Notes under the pieces: generated by a model | Told to the model about the DNA's origin: nothing | The model's database searches: none | What the model saw: the letters and a program-made list of their open reading frames with translations, nothing else | NCBI RefSeq assembly: GCF_055900595.2 | Contig: NZ_JBVWEU010000009.1 | Origin: a plasmid | Strand: one strand, 5' to 3' | Length of the DNA stretch: 5,152 nucleotides | Shown: in pieces, positions 1-5,152 of the stretch | How the letters are laid out: each line of letters begins with the position of its first letter | Position numbering within the stretch: position 1 is the first letter of the stretch | Position numbers and translations under genes: made by a program

Positions 1-45
1 TGTGCATAATATAACCTTGTCTGCCTGCGTGTGAGACCGTAAAAT

Positions 46-110
46 CATCCCTGATTAATTCAGGGATGCGCACTTAGACGTTTCTCTCCTTCGTCGAGAA
101 ACAGTGCGCT
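46..110 (-). other. oriT: origin of transfer (oriT), RSF1010/R1162-like MOBQ nic region
   Basis: Read on the minus strand (plus 102 down to 47) the sequence is GTTTCTC-GACGAAGGA-GAGAAAC-GTC-TAAGTGCGC-ATCCCTG. That is a 7-bp inverted repeat (plus 80-86 / 96-102), 3 nt, then TAAGTGCGC (plus 68-76). This matches the nic core I recall for RSF1010 oriT (GTTTCTCGAAGAGAAACCGGTAAGTG|CGCCCT), including the 3-nt distance between repeat and TAAGTG. A second perfect 9-bp inverted repeat (46-54 catccctga / 60-68 tcagggatg, 5-nt spacer) lies just 3' of the predicted nick. Predicted nick is on the minus strand between plus coordinates 71 and 70. The site is 22 bp upstream of mobA. Confidence 0.6.
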
Positions 111-132
111 CCTGCGGAGGGCTTAACGGCAG

Positions 133-1227
133 ATGGCAAGCTACCATTGCACAGTTAAAACTGGAGCAAAAGGCGTAGCCTTAAAACATGCTGATTACAT
201 TTCCAGATCCGGCGAATATAAAAACTATAAATCGCGGGAGGATCTGGAATTTTCTTCATCCGGTAACATGCCATCATGGGCGAAGAAAAATCCCGCAGAA
301 CTGTGGAAAGCTGCTGATGAATTTGAACGAAAAAACGGGACGGCATACCGTGAAATTGAGATCGCATTACCGCGAGAACTGACACGTGAACAACGGATAG
401 AGCTTGTTGAAGATTTCGTGCAAAAGGAACTTGGTGATCGCCATGCCTATCAGTACGCGATCCACAATCCACCAGGTGCAATTGACGGGAAGGAACAGCC
501 ACACGCGCATATCATGTTTTGCGAACGGATTAATGATGGTATTGAACGCGATCCGCAGCAGTTTTTTAAACGTGCCAACAGCAAATCACCAGAGCGGGGA
601 GGCGCAAAAAAGGCACGCTTTGGCGAGACACAACAAGAGCGAAAATCAGCCCTGGTTGCGCTACGCTCTCACTGGGCTGATGTGCAGAATGAACACCTTG
701 CGCGACACGGCCACCAGTCGCGCGTTGATCATCGTTCGCTGAAAGAACAGGGTATCAAGCGTACGCCGGAGGTGCATCTTGGTCCCGTTCGTGTTGCTGT
801 TATGAACGCTGATCAGGTTTGTGCAATTCTGGCATGGAGAAATGCGGAACGGGAGAAGCTGGAGGCCGAGAAGGAACGGGACAGCATCATTGACCTTAAA
901 ACGACCTTGAAGGAAGCGTTAGCTGAACGGGATAACATGCCACCAACCCTGGATGAGCTTGGGGCAGAATTGAAAGCGTTTGTTGAAAGCTCGTTTGATG
1001 AACTCAATGAGGTAATGCAGCTTAATTCATTGATTGACGGTGCGCTGGACACAATGATGAAGCAATTCCAGGTGGAAGAGGAGCGGAAGCTGCAACAGGA
1101 ACGACTAATTCAGGCTGCGCGAGATGAAGCCGAAAAACAAAGAGAGCTGGAGAGGGAAAGAGTGCGCCGGCGTGCGTATTCTTCACCAGCACCATCACGT
1201 TCACGCGATTATGGTATGAGCCGTTAA
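133..1227 (+). CDS. mobA: mobilization relaxase MobA (MobA/MobL family, MOBQ)
   Basis: 364-aa ORF, ATG at 133 with GGAGG at 116-120. The N-terminus MASYHCTVKTGAKGVALKHADYISRSGEY has the conserved Tyr-containing motif of MobA/MobL relaxases (compare RSF1010 MobA), and a downstream His motif (QPHAHIMF) fits the metal-binding histidine cluster. The C-terminal half is charged and coiled-coil-like (EKLEAEKER, QRELERERVRRR). It sits directly downstream of the oriT-like site. G+C is near half, typical of an enterobacterial backbone. Confidence 0.88.
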   Translation: MASYHCTVKTGAKGVALKHADYISRSGEYKNYKSREDLEFSSSGNMPSWAKKNPAELWKAADEFERKNGTAYREIEIALPRELTREQRIELVEDFVQKELGDRHAYQYAIHNPPGAIDGKEQPHAHIMFCERINDGIERDPQQFFKRANSKSPERGGAKKARFGETQQERKSALVALRSHWADVQNEHLARHGHQSRVDHRSLKEQGIKRTPEVHLGPVRVAVMNADQVCAILAWRNAEREKLEAEKERDSIIDLKTTLKEALAERDNMPPTLDELGAELKAFVESSFDELNEVMQLNSLIDGALDTMMKQFQVEEERKLQQERLIQAARDEAEKQRELERERVRRRAYSSPAPSRSRDYGMSR

Positions 1228-1248
1228 GCACTGGAGGTTTTTTATTTT

Positions 1249-1965
1249 ATGCAATTGGATGAACATTCAAGAAAAATTGCTGCCCTTGTTGCGTATAATG
1301 AAAAGCAAATAAAAGAAATAAACAGGATAATTACTCTGCTTAATGAAAGAGTGAATGATTTAAATACCTTTACAGATACTCTTGAACGTGAAGGTAAAGT
1401 TGTATCTGGAATTTCTTATTCCTTGAGAGATAGTGTGTCTCATGTTGATTTTTATCTTAATAAAGGAATGGAAGAAGTATCCTGTAAATTACAGAAATCT
1501 GTCTCAGACACACTAACATCATTACTCCGTGAAAAATTATCTTTCACACTTAATGATGTAAGGCAAGAGTGGACTGATTTTGAAGAGCAAACAAGTAAAG
1601 AGATAAAGGAATCATTAAAGCAGACGACCAGAGATGCTGAAGTTGCGACAGGTATAATTAGAAAAATAATGGAAAAGTATACAGTAACAAGGATAGTCGA
1701 AAAGGTAATTGTGTTACTTGTGTTATTTTTATTACTAATGATAGCACCTGGTTTCTATGCTGAATATCTCAAAATGAATATCGGTTCTCTAATGGAAGAA
1801 CAGAAAAAACATGAATCTATGTTAAAAGAGTGGAAGGAAAAAGCACCATTGGCAGAGTTCTCTAAGTGTGGAGAGTATAGGGAAGCATGTGTGTTAGTTG
1901 ATGATAAAAGCGGATATTATTATGATGAACAAACTCCAAATAAAAAATATGCCATACTGAAATAG
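1249..1965 (+). CDS. hypothetical bitopic membrane protein (N-terminal coiled-coil domain, one transmembrane helix, small Cys-containing C-terminal domain); AT-rich cargo gene
   Basis: 238-aa ORF. ATG at 1249 is preceded by GGAGG at 1233-1237 and starts 21 nt after the mobA stop codon (TAA 1225-1227), with no obvious promoter in between. The N-terminal ~145 aa are rich in K/E with heptad-like spacing (EKQIKEINRIITLLNERVNDLN). One strongly hydrophobic segment (IVEKVIVLLVLFLLLMIAPGFYAEYL) follows, then a ~70-aa tail with two Cys (SKCGEYREAC) and a YYYDE motif. Codon usage is visibly AT-rich, about one-third G+C by eye, unlike mobA and rep. I recognise no family. Confidence 0.6.
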   Translation: MQLDEHSRKIAALVAYNEKQIKEINRIITLLNERVNDLNTFTDTLEREGKVVSGISYSLRDSVSHVDFYLNKGMEEVSCKLQKSVSDTLTSLLREKLSFTLNDVRQEWTDFEEQTSKEIKESLKQTTRDAEVATGIIRKIMEKYTVTRIVEKVIVLLVLFLLLMIAPGFYAEYLKMNIGSLMEEQKKHESMLKEWKEKAPLAEFSKCGEYREACVLVDDKSGYYYDEQTPNKKYAILK

Positions 1966-2120
1966 TGTTAAGTAACTCATTCCGCCTTATGACTAAGGCT
2001 GCATGAGTATAAAAACTAAAAATAAATGCCCGTACCTAAAAAATGGAACTACATATACTTATGTACCTTGAGAATGACGGAGTTAATTTATCCTTTGTTG
2101 TCAAATTTTTGACCCAAACA

Positions 2121-2160
2121 GGGGCCGCTTGGTAGGGTATCTGAACTCCAATCGGTCCCC
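2121..2160 (-). terminator. candidate intrinsic terminator / GC-rich imperfect hairpin downstream of the minus-strand cargo gene
   Basis: On the minus strand, just after the stop codon (complement of 2172-2174), the sequence GGGGACCGATTGG-(15 nt)-CCAAGCGGCCCC forms an imperfect ~11-bp stem (one bulge, one mismatch) followed by UGUUUGGGUC. It is a GC-rich island in an otherwise AT-rich intergenic region between two convergent genes. The T-tract is weak, so this is only a candidate. Confidence 0.3.
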
Positions 2161-2171
2161 TCATAATGCCT

Positions 2172-2969
2172 TTATGTATTGAATTCTAATACAGGGTCGA
2201 ATTGAAACATGTCATTAAAATAACATAGTGCTGGATTACTAAATGTAATTGGTTCTGCTTCGGTATTTAGGTAATCCAACCATTCATAATAATCTTTTTT
2301 AAATTGCGTGTATGTTTCTTTTGTCATTGGTTTGAATTGATAACCAAAAGTTGTATGAAATCTATATGTGTCATGGTTTTTATGTTTCACTCCTGTTATT
2401 TCAGCAACGGAATTTCTAAAGTTGATTAGTATTTCTTTATCTGAGTTGCTTGCAGGAATTAAAGGTATAATAAAGGCTGGTTGTTTATTATCGTCCCACT
2501 CTGGAGGTAGCGATGGTGTAGATTTTAGATCTACCTTCATTGTAACAGGTTTTTCAAATCCTATTTGTTTATTTTTAAGTGTATTTGCAATTAACTTTGT
2601 CGCTTCCTCCATGCTTATATTCGTGGGGGTGTTATAAGGCCAAGGATTTTTTCTATCGCCACTAATTAAAGAAATGATAGTCATGTGATAAGAGTTTGGA
2701 GGTAATAACACAATGCAATCACCAAAATCTCGTTGAATTCGAACCTGAATATTAAGCATTGCTTTAAATAAATTGCTGTCTTTATCTGTATGGCAGATTA
2801 CGGAACATCCTTTATATTGTGCAACCTTTCCATTGCGATAAAATTTTGCGCCCTTATCAAGACCGTTGTTTTGTGCTATTTCGCATCGATTATTTTCAGC
2901 AAAAACAGTATTAGATGTTATTGCTGCTGTTACTAATGCGGAAGATTTTATAAATGTTCTTCTGTCCAT
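2172..2969 (-). CDS. Tat-signal (twin-arginine) exported protein with 2H phosphoesterase (LigT-like) motifs; AT-rich cargo gene
   Basis: The minus-strand ORF track starts at 3029, but the preferred start is the ATG at 2969 (complement of 2967-2969), preceded by AAGGAA 7 nt upstream. It gives MDRRTFIKSSALVTAAITSNTVFA-ENN: a twin-arginine motif (RRxFIK), a hydrophobic h-region and an A-x-A-like cleavage site (VFA), i.e. a Tat signal peptide. The mature part carries two H-x-T-x motifs flanked by hydrophobics, about 110 aa apart: LLPPNSYHMTIISL and YRFHTTFGYQF. This is the signature of the 2H phosphoesterase superfamily, and the first motif resembles the PPENLH-hydrophobic-T-L segment I recall in LigT. 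G+C is about one-third by eye. Confidence 0.6.
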   Translation of the reverse strand: MDRRTFIKSSALVTAAITSNTVFAENNRCEIAQNNGLDKGAKFYRNGKVAQYKGCSVICHTDKDSNLFKAMLNIQVRIQRDFGDCIVLLPPNSYHMTIISLISGDRKNPWPYNTPTNISMEEATKLIANTLKNKQIGFEKPVTMKVDLKSTPSLPPEWDDNKQPAFIIPLIPASNSDKEILINFRNSVAEITGVKHKNHDTYRFHTTFGYQFKPMTKETYTQFKKDYYEWLDYLNTEAEPITFSNPALCYFNDMFQFDPVLEFNT

Positions 2970-3014
2970 AACAGATTCCTTATTAGTGAATGTGAGTTTC
3001 TTCTTCATTAGAAG

Positions 3015-3042
3015 AATGTAAAAAAACATAAATAAAAGTCAA
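3015..3042 (-). promoter_or_regulatory. candidate sigma70 promoter for the Tat/2H-like gene
   Basis: On the minus strand: TTGACT (complement of 3037-3042), a 16-nt AT-rich spacer, then TACATT (complement of 3015-3020). This lies about 45 nt upstream of the ATG at 2969. The alternative in-frame ATGs at 3029 and 3008 would fall inside or abut this promoter and lack a Shine-Dalgarno sequence. Confidence 0.3.
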
Positions 3043-3237
3043 ACGGTAAAAAACGCCTAGGGGCTTTCACGAAACAAACGGATTTGTACGCTGAACTTTG
3101 ACGTCACCCCGTTTGGGGGAAACTCATCAGAACGCTATATCAAATTCCCGCAAAGGACTTCTCATCCAGGGGAGAAAATTTGTCATTTTGACCCGTTCGC
3201 CGTTCTGTACGGTCGAAACCGATCGCGCATCGCTTTC

Positions 3238-3439: not shown

Positions 3440-3555
3440 GAAAAACAAACGCCCCTGAAATCATGTCCAGATCCGGCAAGATTCAACATGAAATACAGGG
3501 GCGAGGTCGGTCGATAACCTGGAAGGAATCGTAACACATGAGCGCCGCGCTTCAA
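3440..3555 (-). ncRNA. candidate antisense RNA (ColE2 RNAI-like copy-number control RNA) complementary to the rep leader
   Basis: A long interrupted hairpin in the rep leader: gcccctg (3451-3457) pairs with caggggc (3496-3502), and the inner arms tcatgt (3461-3466) pair with acatga (3486-3491). On the minus strand the stem is followed directly by GUUUGUUUUUC (complement of about 3440-3450), the shape of an intrinsic terminator for a minus-strand transcript. ColE2-type replicons are known to control Rep translation with a roughly 115-nt antisense RNA against the leader. The 5' end and promoter are not resolved, so the boundaries are approximate. Confidence 0.4.
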
Positions 3556-4473
3556 TACTTCGACGAAAATTTACCCCACCGTCCCTATCACACGGATGAT
3601 CTCGCTTTTGGTCTTCGCATCTCCGGCAAAGGGCGTGCGCTTCTTGCGCGGTACATACAGCAGAACCAGCCTCATGCGCAGTTCTGGCTGGTTTTTGACG
3701 TTGACCGCGAGGGGGCAGCGATTGACTGGAGTGACCGGAACGCTCCCGCGCCGAACATCACCGTAAAAAATCCTGTGAACGGTCATGCTCACCTGCTCTA
3801 CGCGCTCAATATCGCCGTGAGAACCGCGCCGGACAGCTCGGTTAAGGCGCTGAAATACGCCGCTGCGATTGAACGTTCGCTGTGTGAGAAACTTTGTGCT
3901 GATGTGAACTACAGCGGACTGATTTGCAAAAATCCGTTCCACCTGGAATGGCAGGTGATGGAGTGGCGCGAGGAAGCCTATACCCTCGATGAACTGGCAG
4001 ATTATCTCGATTTGAGCGCCTCAGCGCGTCGTAGCATCGATAAACATTACGGGATGGGGCGAAACTGCCACCTGTTCGAAATGACGCGCAAATGGGCTTA
4101 CAGGGCGATTCGTCAGGGCTGGCCAGCATTCTCACAGTGGCTTGATGCCGTGATTCAGCGTGTCGAAATGTACAACGCATCGCTTCCCGTTCCGCTTTCT
4201 CCGGCTGAATGTCGGGCTATTGGCAGGAGCATTGCGAAATACACGCACAGGAACTTCACGCCGGAAACTTTCGCACAGTATGTGGCTGATACGCACACAC
4301 CAGAAATACAGGCCAAGAGAGGCCGGAAAGGTGGTATCGCTAAAGGCGAAGCCTACGATGACAAGCGTTTCATGGCGCTATGTATGCTGGATAATGGATA
4401 TTCTCAGAAAGCTATTGCGGCGATGCTGAATGTACATCGTAATACGATCCGTAATTGGGCAATGCACAAATAG
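3538..4473 (+). CDS. rep: ColE2-type replication initiator Rep (plasmid-specific primase-like initiator)
   Basis: 311-aa ORF, ATG at 3538 with AAGGA at 3523-3527. The N-terminus MSAALQYFDENLPHRPYHTDDLAFGLRISGKGRALLARYIQQNQPHAQFWLVFDVDREGAAIDWSDRNAPAPNITVKNP closely matches what I recall of ColE2-P9 Rep (MSAVLQRFREKLPHKPY...QNQPHA...DWSDRN.PAPNITVKNP). The C-terminus has a helix-turn-helix-like segment (YSQKAIAAMLNVHRNTIRNW). The origin motif follows directly after the stop codon, as in ColE2. G+C is near or above half. Confidence 0.9.
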   Translation: MSAALQYFDENLPHRPYHTDDLAFGLRISGKGRALLARYIQQNQPHAQFWLVFDVDREGAAIDWSDRNAPAPNITVKNPVNGHAHLLYALNIAVRTAPDSSVKALKYAAAIERSLCEKLCADVNYSGLICKNPFHLEWQVMEWREEAYTLDELADYLDLSASARRSIDKHYGMGRNCHLFEMTRKWAYRAIRQGWPAFSQWLDAVIQRVEMYNASLPVPLSPAECRAIGRSIAKYTHRNFTPETFAQYVADTHTPEIQAKRGRKGGIAKGEAYDDKRFMALCMLDNGYSQKAIAAMLNVHRNTIRNWAMHK

Positions 4474-4666: not shown

Positions 4667-5113
4667 TTACGCACTGTCTTTGGTTAGTAGCTTCTTCCCG
4701 CGTCTTTCCCATTCCTGCCATTTTGGATGGTTGCGCGGTAGCTCTGCGATTCCTGCGAGTGCGCCTACCAGTTCGGCAGCACTACACTTTGGTTTTCCGG
4801 TTTTGCTGTCCACCAGTCCTGCCACAATCATGAGGCCTGCGGCCTTGTAGAGTTCATGATCCCGCGCTTTTCGTTCCGCCCTTGCGGCTGCCTTCCGTTC
4901 TGCCGCTATGATTGCCGTTACCCTGGCTTTTGCTGCGGCTGCTTTCTCTGCGGTTTTTTCTGCCCGTATCAGTGCGGATAACGTTTTTTCATCCGTCGTT
5001 GTTCGGTTTTTTTTCTCTGCCAGTAACACAAGTAATCTCTGCTGCTCTGACGGTGATTTCAGTCCGTTGATGTAGGCAATTTTTGCACTTAACCACTCTT
5101 CACGATTTGTCAT
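4667..5113 (-). CDS. mobC: MobC-like mobilization accessory protein (divergent from mobA across oriT if the molecule is circular)
   Basis: 148-aa minus-strand ORF. ATG is the complement of 5111-5113, with GAGGT 5 nt upstream. The protein is Ala/Lys/Arg/Glu-rich and helical (EKTAEKAAAAKARVTAIIAAERKAAARAERKARDHELYKAAGLMIVAGL, ELVGALAGIAELPRNHP), like the small oriT-binding accessory proteins found beside MOBQ relaxases. Its start is 39 bp from the window end; joining the end to the start puts it divergent from mobA with oriT between them, as mobC/oriT/mobA is arranged in RSF1010-type plasmids. The family call rests on position and composition, not on a recognised motif. Confidence 0.5.
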   Translation of the reverse strand: MTNREEWLSAKIAYINGLKSPSEQQRLLVLLAEKKNRTTTDEKTLSALIRAEKTAEKAAAAKARVTAIIAAERKAAARAERKARDHELYKAAGLMIVAGLVDSKTGKPKCSAAELVGALAGIAELPRNHPKWQEWERRGKKLLTKDSA

Positions 5114-5152
5114 TCTTACCTCTGCACTTTTGCCGTTAATGTGAGTTGTTAT

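What the first reader, a model, noticed from the sequence alone, without database searches (positions are those of the whole stretch)
1249..1965. Unassigned bitopic coiled-coil membrane protein apparently co-transcribed with mobA
The gene starts 21 nt after the mobA stop codon, with its own Shine-Dalgarno sequence but no recognisable promoter, so it is probably read through from the mob promoter. Yet its composition is foreign (AT-rich). It has a long cytoplasmic coiled-coil region, one transmembrane helix and a short Cys-containing outer domain. It might be a membrane-anchored mobilization accessory protein (MobB-like role), an entry-exclusion or immunity-like factor, or the partner of the adjacent exported 2H-like protein. 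None of these can be told apart from sequence alone.
Basis: partly seen in the sequence, partly recalled or inferred. Interest (0 to 1): 0.55.

Follow-up and report, generated by a model that had tools for sequence, protein, structure and literature searches.

The report
MobB-like membrane helper of plasmid mobilization
This unnamed gene on a small mobilizable E. coli-type plasmid most likely encodes a membrane-anchored helper of the plasmid's DNA-transfer enzyme, a distant relative of the known MobB and MbeB mobilization proteins, so it is a modest annotation gain rather than a new kind of system.

Summary
ORF 1249-1965 encodes 238 aa and starts 21 nt after the mobA stop, behind a GGAGG. No promoter-like site precedes it. 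GC is 33% against 49% for mobA. It has one strong TM helix (aa 153-171) and a C-terminal domain with two invariant Cys. dN/dS of 0.13-0.23 shows a constrained gene.

No Pfam, NCBIfam, PADLOC, PHROG or PDB family matches. Every homologue found (97% down to about 20% identity; E. coli, Salmonella, Providencia, Proteus, Rosenbergiella, Hamiltonella) lies directly after a MobA/MobL relaxase gene, from a 13-nt overlap to a 21-nt gap. The downstream genes vary or are absent.

Profile-profile comparison links the family to IncQ MobB (87%, P 4e-6) and ColE1 MbeB (89%, P 2e-6). Both scores are well above shuffle controls, and both proteins share its architecture.

Best reading (about 0.6): a MobB/MbeB-class membrane-anchored mobilization accessory protein co-expressed with MobA. 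Entry exclusion remains a rival. Partnership with the neighbouring Tat-exported 2H protein is refuted, because that gene replaced an earlier LysE cargo. The AT-richness is ancestral to the mobA-ORF pair, not evidence of recent acquisition.

Novelty: new variant of a known kind. Interest: modest.

The parts
1249..1965 (+). ORF of 238 aa plus TAG stop: the proposed MobB/MbeB-class mobilization accessory protein
   Evidence: ORF list. dN/dS 0.13-0.23. Homologues always lie directly after mobA. hhalign to MbeB 89% and to MobB 87%.
1232..1236 (+). Shine-Dalgarno-like GGAGG, 12 nt upstream of the ATG, inside the 21-nt mobA-ORF spacer
   Evidence: Read directly from the sequence. Relatives have AGGA in 9-12-nt spacers.
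1249..1704 (+). Predicted cytoplasmic, all-helical N-terminal domain (aa 1-152). It carries the conserved N-terminal K-I-A-A-L motif (aa 9-13), heptad periodicity at aa ~8-60, and a conserved pre-TM A-E...I-R-K-x-M segment.
   Evidence: Alignments A1 and A6. Heptad test. AF2 secondary structure, low confidence. This region aligns to MobB 13-97.
1705..1761 (+). Single transmembrane helix (aa 153-171, VIVLLVLFLLLMIAPGFYA)
   Evidence: Kyte-Doolittle 19-mer 2.75. Highest pLDDT segment in both AF2 models.
1762..1962 (+). Predicted periplasmic C-terminal domain (aa 172-238): a juxtamembrane helix, then a small beta unit. Family motif W195-x2-K-A-P-x-A-x4-C207-x6-C214-V-x-V-D ... K-K-Y-x-I-L-K.
   Evidence: Invariant columns W195, K198, A199, P200, A202, C207, C214. 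Positive-inside rule. Lowest dN/dS outside the N-domain.
133..1227 (+). mobA: a MOBQ-class relaxase of 364 aa. The relaxase domain is aa 1-241; the C-terminal 123 aa are lineage-specific.
   Evidence: Partial NCBIfam MobQ and TraA_Ti hits. PLSDB types the relatives as MOBQ. Identity to the 516-aa MobA of L003 stops at aa 241.
4667..5113 (-). TraD-like (MobC-position) relaxosome accessory gene, divergent from mobA
   Evidence: Annotated 'conjugal transfer protein TraD' and PF06412 in relatives.
68..112 (+). oriT-like region between the divergent mob genes. Inverted repeat GTTTCTC/GAGAAAC (80-86/96-102), followed by AGTGCGC.
   Evidence: Inverted repeats. The resemblance to the R1162/RSF1010 nic region is from my own knowledge and was not tested.
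17..45 (+). The only sigma-70-like site upstream of mobA and the ORF on the + strand; candidate mob promoter
   Evidence: Consensus scan, 9 of 12 matches. The total number of sites in the window is not above the shuffle expectation.
2036..2101 (-). 3' remnant of a LysE-family translocator gene. It marks the left end of the cargo replacement.
   Evidence: 20 of 22 aa identical to the C-terminal region (aa 158-179 of 190) of the L001 LysE protein. DNA homology with L001 and L002 ends at ~2104.

Best explanation
The ORF encodes a bitopic inner-membrane protein, N-terminus in the cytoplasm and C-terminus in the periplasm. It is the third gene of the plasmid's mobilization module, arranged as traD/mobC-like gene, oriT, mobA, then this gene. 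It is transcribed from the mob promoter and translated just after MobA. Its likely job matches that described for IncQ MobB and assumed for ColE1 MbeB. The helical cytoplasmic domain would bind the relaxase or relaxosome, probably through the lineage-specific C-terminal part of MobA. The TM helix would hold that complex at the inner membrane, so that the helper plasmid's coupling protein and type IV secretion channel can take it up. That would raise mobilization frequency. The conserved, probably disulfide-stapled periplasmic domain is an addition absent from MobB. It may contact a periplasmic part of the helper's secretion apparatus. What is shown: gene reality, topology signals, strict synteny with mobA, independence from the cargo, and profile-level similarity to MobB and MbeB. 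What is inferred: binding to MobA, membrane tethering, stimulation of transfer, and the role of the periplasmic domain.
For: (1) Synteny. In every lineage recovered the homologue follows a MobA_MobL gene. The gaps are 21 nt (window, L001, L005), 20 (L002), 14 (L011), 12 (L018-L021), 9 (L022), 2 (L012) and a 13-nt overlap (L013). Protein identity to the window ranges from 97% to about 20%. (2) The P0017-type plasmids of about 4.5 kb carry only rep, traD, mobA and this gene. (3) Downstream genes vary: LysE plus a hypothetical gene, a Tat-DUF1868 gene, ParE, restriction-modification genes, or none. (4) hhalign of the family profile against a ColE1 MbeB profile gives probability 81.5%. This rises to 89.4% when more diverse members are added (P 2e-6, 98 columns). 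Reversed control scores 20; 100 local 6-column shuffles give mean 19, max 31, against 45 observed. (5) hhalign against a 6-sequence IncQ MobB profile gives probability 86.7% (P 4e-6, 102 columns). Shuffles give mean 18, max 26; reversed scores 15. One member gives a weak Pfam Mobilization_B hit. (6) MobB (137 aa, TM ~99-120) and MbeB (172 aa, TM ~89-110 plus a ~60-aa conserved tail) share the plan of a helical N-domain, one TM and a C-terminal tail. Both are encoded in the relaxase operon. (7) Module behaviour: relative to L003, DNA homology stops at MobA aa 241, so the short MobA C-terminus and the ORF are exchanged together. (8) Purifying selection. (9) Literature: deleting mobB in pTF-FC2/pTC-F14 drastically lowers transfer (PMC6856555). 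R1162 MobB is needed for the relaxase's type IV transport signals (Parker and Meyer 2007; title seen; details from my own knowledge).
Against: No sequence-to-profile method finds MobB or MbeB. Pfam, NCBIfam and PDB searches give only coiled-coil noise. The profile-profile signal is centred on the pre-TM helix, the TM and the juxtamembrane helix. The N- and C-domains tested alone give no signal. Alignments of TM-containing helical proteins can be inflated. MobB and MbeB do not detect each other (probability 0.5%). Sister plasmids with a 516-aa MobA lack the gene (L003) or carry a decayed copy (L014), so it is not universally required. Published MOBQ4 work describes only mobA and mobC as transfer genes (PMC6856555). 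The most conserved part is periplasmic, which a simple cytoplasmic tether does not explain. AF2 models are low-confidence (pLDDT 54 and 63). No interaction was tested.
Confidence: 0.6

Rival explanations
1. Entry-exclusion factor. Expressed in a cell that already holds the plasmid, the membrane protein would block entry of the same or a related plasmid during mobilization, as reported for the ColE1 mob gene mbeD.
For: It is the last gene of the mob operon and sits in the inner membrane with an exposed periplasmic domain. Divergent allele types are embedded in similar backbones. Between the window and L005, mobA has dS 0.48 and dN 0.07, while the ORF is saturated at synonymous sites with dN 0.46. 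DNA homology stops at nt 1317. Strain SCU-106 carries two related plasmids with the 97% and 91% alleles. [quoted passage not shown]
Against: There is no similarity to ColE1 MbeD, Exc1 or Exc2 (hhalign probability below 1%), and no Pfam MbeD_MobD hit. The periplasmic domain is the most conserved part of the family, whereas specificity determinants of exclusion proteins usually diverge. The profile similarity points to MobB and MbeB instead. PMC11493245 itself notes that it remains unclear whether exclusion is really at play for mbeD, and that no donor target is known.
Confidence: 0.15
2. A plasmid-selfish membrane protein unrelated to DNA transfer, for example a stability, anti-defence, toxin/immunity or envelope-modifying factor. 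It would merely hitch-hike on the mob transcript.
For: No characterised family is matched at significance. Related plasmids are regarded as cryptic. PMC6856555 says there is still no clue to the advantage conferred by cryptic MOBQ41 plasmids. There are weak PADLOC hits (AbiZ 1.5e-4; ZorA, LeoBC and JetC in other members).
Against: The PADLOC, PHROG and NCBIfam hits differ from member to member and all fall on the helical region, as expected for coiled-coil noise. Strict adjacency to mobA across about 20-97% identity, with start codons overlapping or abutting the mobA stop, is hard to explain without a functional link. The gene was never found apart from a mobA gene or a mobA fragment.
Confidence: 0.15
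3. Membrane partner, anchor or immunity protein of the adjacent Tat-exported DUF1868/2H-phosphodiesterase-like protein (2172-3029, minus strand).
For: Only physical adjacency, shared AT-richness in this window, and the fact that both products face the periplasm.
Against: The Tat gene lies in a segment (2105-3214) absent from all related plasmids found. Those plasmids carry the ORF with other neighbours. The window retains a 3' remnant of the LysE gene that was displaced. The two genes are convergent, so they are not co-transcribed.
Confidence: 0.02

Closest known systems
IncQ (RSF1010/R1162) MobB, Pfam PF17511 Mobilization_B
   Same: It is partnered with a MOBQ relaxase, and the module order is the same: accessory gene, oriT, mobA, mobB. 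mobB lies just after the region that encodes the relaxase domain. It has a helical cytoplasmic N-domain followed by one TM helix, with a W-K/R at the cytoplasmic edge of the TM. hhalign probability 86.7%, P 4e-6, over 102 columns.
   Different: MobB is 137 aa with only a ~17-aa tail after the TM, no Cys pair and no periplasmic domain. It is nested out of frame inside a mobA-repB fusion gene. The window's gene is 238 aa, free-standing downstream of a short mobA, and has a ~65-aa conserved periplasmic domain. It fails the NCBIfam and Pfam MobB models.
ColE1 MbeB (the MobB of ColE1-type plasmids), NCBI 'MbeB family mobilization protein', Pfam PF04837
   Same: It is a small-plasmid mobilization gene in the relaxase operon. 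It has a helical N-domain, one TM and a ~60-aa C-terminal domain that is the most conserved part of the protein. hhalign probability 89.4%, P 2e-6, over 98 columns spanning the pre-TM helix, the TM and the juxtamembrane helix.
   Different: The partner relaxase is MbeA (PLSDB types it MOBP; the HEN motif is per PMC12857230), not MOBQ. mbeB is nested inside mbeA in another frame. The periplasmic motif differs: L-N-A-K-T-W-G-V...F-L-V-L-P against W-x2-K-A-P-x-A...C...C-V-x-V-D. The C-domains alone show no detectable similarity.
ColE1 MbeD and Exc1/Exc2 (mobilization/exclusion proteins)
   Same: They are encoded in or beside the mob operon of a small mobilizable enterobacterial plasmid. An exclusion role is the main rival function.
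   Different: No sequence or profile similarity (hhalign probability below 1%). MbeD (77 aa) has no TM segment (maximum Kyte-Doolittle 0.06). By NCBI's family annotation Exc2 is a lipoprotein.

Membership tests
IncQ MobB (PF17511 / NCBIfam IncQ-type mobilization protein MobB) | Significant match to the family's sequence model | tested here: not met
   No NCBIfam MobB hit at E<=0.1 to 1. Pfam Mobilization_B appears in only 1 of 11 members, at i-E 6.9e-3, among many noise hits.
IncQ MobB (PF17511 / NCBIfam IncQ-type mobilization protein MobB) | Profile-profile homology to MobB sequences | tested here: inconclusive
   hhalign A6 against a 6-sequence MobB alignment: probability 86.7%, P 4.4e-6, score 41.4. 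Local shuffles give mean 18.3, max 25.9; reversed gives 15.4. This is suggestive, but both alignments are shallow and the match includes a TM helix.
IncQ MobB (PF17511 / NCBIfam IncQ-type mobilization protein MobB) | Helical cytoplasmic domain plus a single C-proximal TM helix, encoded with a MOBQ relaxase next to oriT and a divergent accessory gene | tested here: met
   TM at 153-171. MobB TM at ~99-120. Module order.
IncQ MobB (PF17511 / NCBIfam IncQ-type mobilization protein MobB) | Stimulates relaxosome stability and type IV transport of the relaxase | not testable with these tools
   Needs mating assays and interaction tests.
ColE1 MbeB family (PF04837 / NCBI MbeB family mobilization protein) | Significant match to the family's sequence model | tested here: not met
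   No MbeB_N Pfam hit and no NCBIfam MbeB hit for any member.
ColE1 MbeB family (PF04837 / NCBI MbeB family mobilization protein) | Profile-profile homology | tested here: inconclusive
   hhalign 81.5% (A2), rising to 89.4% (A6), P 2.1e-6. None of 100 local shuffles reach the observed score (max 31 against 45). The isolated N- or C-domains give no signal.
ColE1 MbeB family (PF04837 / NCBI MbeB family mobilization protein) | Conserved periplasmic motif L-N-A-K-T-W-G-V ... F-L-V-L-P-x-G | tested here: not met
   The window family has W-x2-K-A-P-x-A ... C ... C-V-x-V-D instead.
ColE1 MbeB family (PF04837 / NCBI MbeB family mobilization protein) | Encoded within the relaxase operon of a small mobilizable plasmid | tested here: met
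   The gene lies directly downstream of mobA in all lineages. The difference is that it is free-standing rather than nested, and the relaxase is MOBQ rather than MbeA.
Entry-exclusion proteins (ColE1 MbeD PF04899, Exc1, Exc2) | Sequence or profile similarity to a known exclusion protein | tested here: not met
   hhalign probability is 0.8% or lower against MbeD, Exc1 and Exc2. No PF04899 hit.
Entry-exclusion proteins (ColE1 MbeD PF04899, Exc1, Exc2) | Reduces plasmid entry when expressed in the recipient | not testable with these tools
   Needs exclusion-index matings.
tRNA modification GTPase (the name given to the 194-aa homologues by NCBI and UniRef) | Match to a GTPase or MnmE model, or a G-domain | tested here: not met
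   No such NCBIfam or Pfam hit in L018, L022, P0021 or P0017. The name appears to be an annotation error.

The most novel reading that the evidence does not exclude
The family could be the missing link showing that IncQ MobB and ColE1 MbeB belong to one ancient superfamily of bitopic relaxase-to-membrane adaptors, used by unrelated relaxase classes (MOBQ and MOBP/HEN). In that reading its conserved, disulfide-stapled periplasmic domain docks directly onto periplasmic parts of helper type IV secretion systems. It might act both in the donor, by recruitment, and in the recipient, by exclusion.
Probability: 0.2. Interest if true: 0.55.

Novelty: new variant of a known kind. Interest (0 to 1): 0.35.

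Why it matters
Small mobilizable plasmids are very common in Enterobacterales, and how they hijack helper conjugation systems is only partly understood. This gene family has no Pfam or NCBIfam model. It is labelled 'hypothetical', or mislabelled 'tRNA modification GTPase', in public records, and one 194-aa form is seen on at least 1000 contigs. Assigning it to the MobB/MbeB class would correct those annotations. It would also add a third mob gene to a MOBQ plasmid lineage whose relatives, the MOBQ4 plasmids, are described as having only mobA and mobC. Finally, it suggests that MobB and MbeB, which serve different relaxase classes, share an origin. The practical pay-off is a testable target for understanding, or blocking, the recruitment of mobilizable plasmids to helper secretion systems.

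Tried and rejected
(1) Single-sequence and profile searches of Pfam, NCBIfam, PADLOC, PHROGs and PDB sequences gave only sub-threshold helical or coiled-coil hits: syntaxin, apolipophorin III, vinculin tail, ZorA, AbiZ and tape-measure proteins. The hits change from member to member, so I treated them as noise.

(2) Two AlphaFold2 runs on 10- and 11-sequence alignments gave mean pLDDT 54 and 63, with pTM 0.22 and 0.27. I therefore ran no fold search. I used only the secondary-structure outline: long helices, the TM, then a small beta unit.

(3) The exhaustive search returned a 2278-aa repeat protein, P0019, at E 9e-21. This is an artefact. Each of its 11 near-identical repeats scores only 10-15 bits, and no other family member hits it.

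(4) hhalign of the N-domain alone or the C-domain alone against MbeB gave no signal. My by-eye match of the C-terminal tails is therefore unsupported.

(5) The 275-aa C-terminal extension of the 516-aa MobA in L003 has no TM and no similarity to the family. I found no evidence that it is a fused equivalent.

(6) ColE1 MbeD, Exc1, Exc2 and MobC show no similarity.

(7) No intrinsic terminator follows the ORF. The hairpin at about 1975-2008 (z -2.6) lacks a U-tract on either strand.

(8) The Parker and Meyer 2007 paper on MobB is not held in the library. Its content is cited from my own knowledge.

Full report
THE WINDOW

The 5152 bases are a complete circular plasmid. The last 39 bases joined to the first 132 match the traD-mobA intergenic region of plasmid pDETEC84 (L001) at 170 of 171 positions.

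The plasmid carries four backbone features:
- a ColE2-type rep gene (3538-4473; PF03090 in relatives);
- a TraD-like accessory gene (4667-5113, minus strand);
- an oriT-like inverted repeat (80-86/96-102);
- a 364-aa MOBQ-class relaxase gene, mobA (133-1227).

It also has an AT-rich stretch from about 1230 to 3050. This stretch holds the ORF in question (1249-1965, plus strand) and a convergent gene for a Tat-signal DUF1868/2H-phosphodiesterase protein (Pfam PF08975 1e-20 and TAT_signal).

CHECKING THE OBSERVATION

Every sequence-level statement holds.
- The ORF is 238 aa. It starts 21 nt after the mobA TAA, and GGAGG lies 12 nt upstream of the ATG.
- No sigma-70-like site lies on the plus strand between position 45 and the ORF.
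- GC is 0.33 (GC3 0.25), against 0.49 (GC3 0.45) for mobA.
- There is one strong hydrophobic segment at aa 153-171 (Kyte-Doolittle 2.75). Its N-side flank is positively charged, which predicts N-in/C-out.
- C207 and C214 sit in the C-terminal domain and are invariant across the family.
- The gene is under purifying selection, with dN/dS of 0.13-0.23 between natural alleles.

The 'long coiled coil' needs trimming. Heptad order beyond shuffles is confined to about aa 8-60. The rest is predicted helical, but both AlphaFold2 models are of low confidence (pLDDT 54 and 63).

HOW COMMON IT IS, AND WHERE IT SITS

No Pfam, NCBIfam, PADLOC, PHROG or PDB-sequence family matches at significance.

An exhaustive scan of 1.84 billion representative proteins found only a handful of clusters. 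Profile and genome scans added more. The forms found are:
- a 238-aa form (97% and 90% alleles) in E. coli, Salmonella, Shigella and Klebsiella;
- a 240-aa form at 46% identity (P0017);
- 194-200-aa forms at about 20-35% identity in Salmonella, Providencia, Proteus, Morganella, Rosenbergiella and Candidatus Hamiltonella.

In complete E. coli genomes, 24 of 5426 carry the window-type gene, always on plasmids.

In every case the gene lies directly after a MobA_MobL relaxase gene. The gaps are 21, 20, 14, 12, 9 or 2 nt, or a 13-nt overlap. Where the contig extends far enough, a divergent TraD-like gene lies upstream of mobA.

The genes further downstream differ:
- LysE plus a 316-aa hypothetical protein (L001, L002);
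- ParE (L012);
- a restriction-modification pair (L018);
- nothing at all in the roughly 4.5-kb P0017-type plasmids, which carry only rep, traD, mobA and this gene.

The gene therefore belongs to the mob module, not to the cargo.

THE NEIGHBOURING TAT GENE IS A LATE ARRIVAL

DNA homology between the window and L001/L002 runs through the ORF and stops at about 2104. It resumes at 3215. Window 2036-2101 (minus strand) still encodes 22 aa that are 91% identical to the C-terminal end of the LysE protein of L001. So the Tat-DUF1868 gene replaced an earlier LysE cargo. This refutes the idea that the ORF is that protein's partner.

COMPOSITION AND EVOLUTION

The ORF is AT-rich relative to mobA in the E. 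coli plasmids. In lower-GC relatives the two genes have the same GC3 (0.26/0.28 in L011; 0.27/0.29 in L013). The pair is therefore old, and 'foreign' is a misreading.

The ORF evolves much faster than the relaxase. Between the window and L005, MobA is 86% identical and the ORF 46%. mobA has dS 0.48, while the ORF is saturated at synonymous sites. Nucleotide homology stops at 1317, just after the conserved N-terminal K-I-A-A-L motif.

Relative to plasmids with a 516-aa MobA (L003), homology stops at MobA aa 241. The short MobA C-terminus and the ORF thus behave as one exchangeable unit. Those long-MobA plasmids lack the gene (L003). One of them (L014) carries a decayed copy that lacks the N-domain and has an in-frame stop. 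The gene is therefore dispensable in some backbones.

RELATIONSHIP TO KNOWN MOBILIZATION PROTEINS

ColE1 MbeB (172 aa) and IncQ MobB (137 aa) share the same plan. Each has a helical N-terminal domain, one TM helix and a C-terminal tail, and each is encoded inside the relaxase operon.

Single-sequence comparisons were negative. Profile-profile comparisons were not.

Against a 14-sequence MbeB alignment:
- hhalign gave probability 81.5%;
- this rose to 89.4% (P 2e-6, 98 columns) once the Providencia, Proteus and Rosenbergiella members were added;
- the reversed profile scored 20;
- region-wise shuffles reached at most 22;
- 100 local 6-column shuffles gave mean 19 and max 31, against 45 observed.

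Against a 6-sequence IncQ MobB alignment:
- probability was 86.7% (P 4e-6, 102 columns, ORF aa 35-173 against MobB 13-120);
- shuffles gave mean 18 and max 26;
- the reversed profile scored 15.

MobB and MbeB do not detect each other (0.5%), so this family behaves as an intermediate.

Three caveats apply. The alignments are shallow. The matched region includes the TM helix. The isolated N- or C-domains give no signal. I therefore treat homology as probable, not proven. I do not file the gene as a member of either family, because it fails their sequence models and lacks the MbeB periplasmic motif.

MECHANISM

The best-supported reading is a MobB/MbeB-class accessory protein. It would be made from the mob transcript just after MobA. 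It would bind the relaxase or relaxosome through its cytoplasmic helices and hold it at the inner membrane for hand-over to the helper's coupling protein and secretion channel.

For R1162, MobB is required for the relaxase's type IV transport signals (Parker and Meyer 2007; title seen; details from my own knowledge). Deleting mobB in pTF-FC2/pTC-F14 sharply lowers transfer (PMC6856555).

The conserved Cys-pair periplasmic domain is absent from MobB. Its role, possibly contact with the helper apparatus, is inference only.

The main rival is entry exclusion. This is prompted by the membrane location, the operon-terminal position, the divergent allele types and the ColE1 mbeD precedent (PMC11493245). 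It has no sequence support, and the periplasmic domain is conserved rather than variable.

COMPARISON WITH THE LITERATURE

Garcillan-Barcia et al. 2019 (PMC6856555) describe related MOBQ4 plasmids as having two transfer genes, mobA and mobC. They note an unannotated hypothetical gene in the MOBQ41 backbone. I found no paper that assigns a function to the family studied here. This conclusion is limited to the held library.

VERDICT

This is a new variant of a known kind of protein. It has modest interest, mainly for annotation and for linking MobB with MbeB.

Noticed in passing
window 5114-5152 joined to 1-132: The window is a complete circular plasmid of 5152 bp, cut inside the traD-mobA intergenic (oriT) region. 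The joined ends match L001 1906-2076 at 170 of 171 positions.
   Followed up: yes
window 2105-3214: A 1.1-kb AT-rich segment carries a Tat-signal DUF1868/2H-phosphodiesterase gene (Pfam PF08975 1e-20). It has no megablast match in 72,556 plasmids or 5,426 complete E. coli genomes. It replaced a LysE plus hypothetical-gene cargo, leaving a LysE 3' remnant at 2036-2101.
   Followed up: partly
L018 2847-3431; L019; L020; cluster 7: The 194-aa homologues are widespread in Enterobacterales; one member is seen on at least 1000 contigs. NCBI and UniRef name them 'tRNA modification GTPase', or once 'MlaD'. No NCBIfam or Pfam model supports either name.
   Followed up: yes
L014 5986-6363 (E. coli ECOR 24 plasmid RCS90_pII): Downstream of a fragment of a 516-aa-type MobA lies a decayed, unannotated copy of the gene. 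It has only the TM and periplasmic part, with an in-frame stop between the two Cys.
   Followed up: partly
window 855 and 1317: There are sharp recombination breakpoints. Nucleotide homology to L003 ends at 854 (MobA aa 241). Homology to L005 ends at 1317 (ORF codon ~23). It resumes at 3172 in both. The plasmids share a backbone with a variable slot whose left edge differs between them.
   Followed up: partly
window 68-112: Inverted repeat GTTTCTC/GAGAAAC, followed by AGTGCGCTCC. It resembles the R1162/RSF1010 oriT hairpin and nic region as I recall it, and is probably the plasmid's oriT.
   Followed up: no
NZ_CP053241.1 and NZ_CP053240.1 (E. coli SCU-106): One strain carries two related plasmids with different alleles of the gene (97% and 91% nucleotide identity to the window). 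This bears on compatibility and exclusion.
   Followed up: no
window 1975-2008: A conserved stem-loop of about 14 bp lies just after the ORF stop (RNA fold z-score -2.6). It has no U-tract on either strand, so it is not a canonical terminator.
   Followed up: partly
L017 (Bacteroidetes MAG) and L021 (Halothece MAG): Small contigs binned into non-enterobacterial MAGs carry enterobacterial-type mobA plus this gene. L017 is 97% identical to the window protein. These are probably binning contamination.
   Followed up: no
L005 (8643-bp metagenome scaffold): The scaffold holds two tandem copies of a ~4.5-kb plasmid (mobA, the ORF and rep twice). This is either a plasmid dimer or an assembly artefact.
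   Followed up: no
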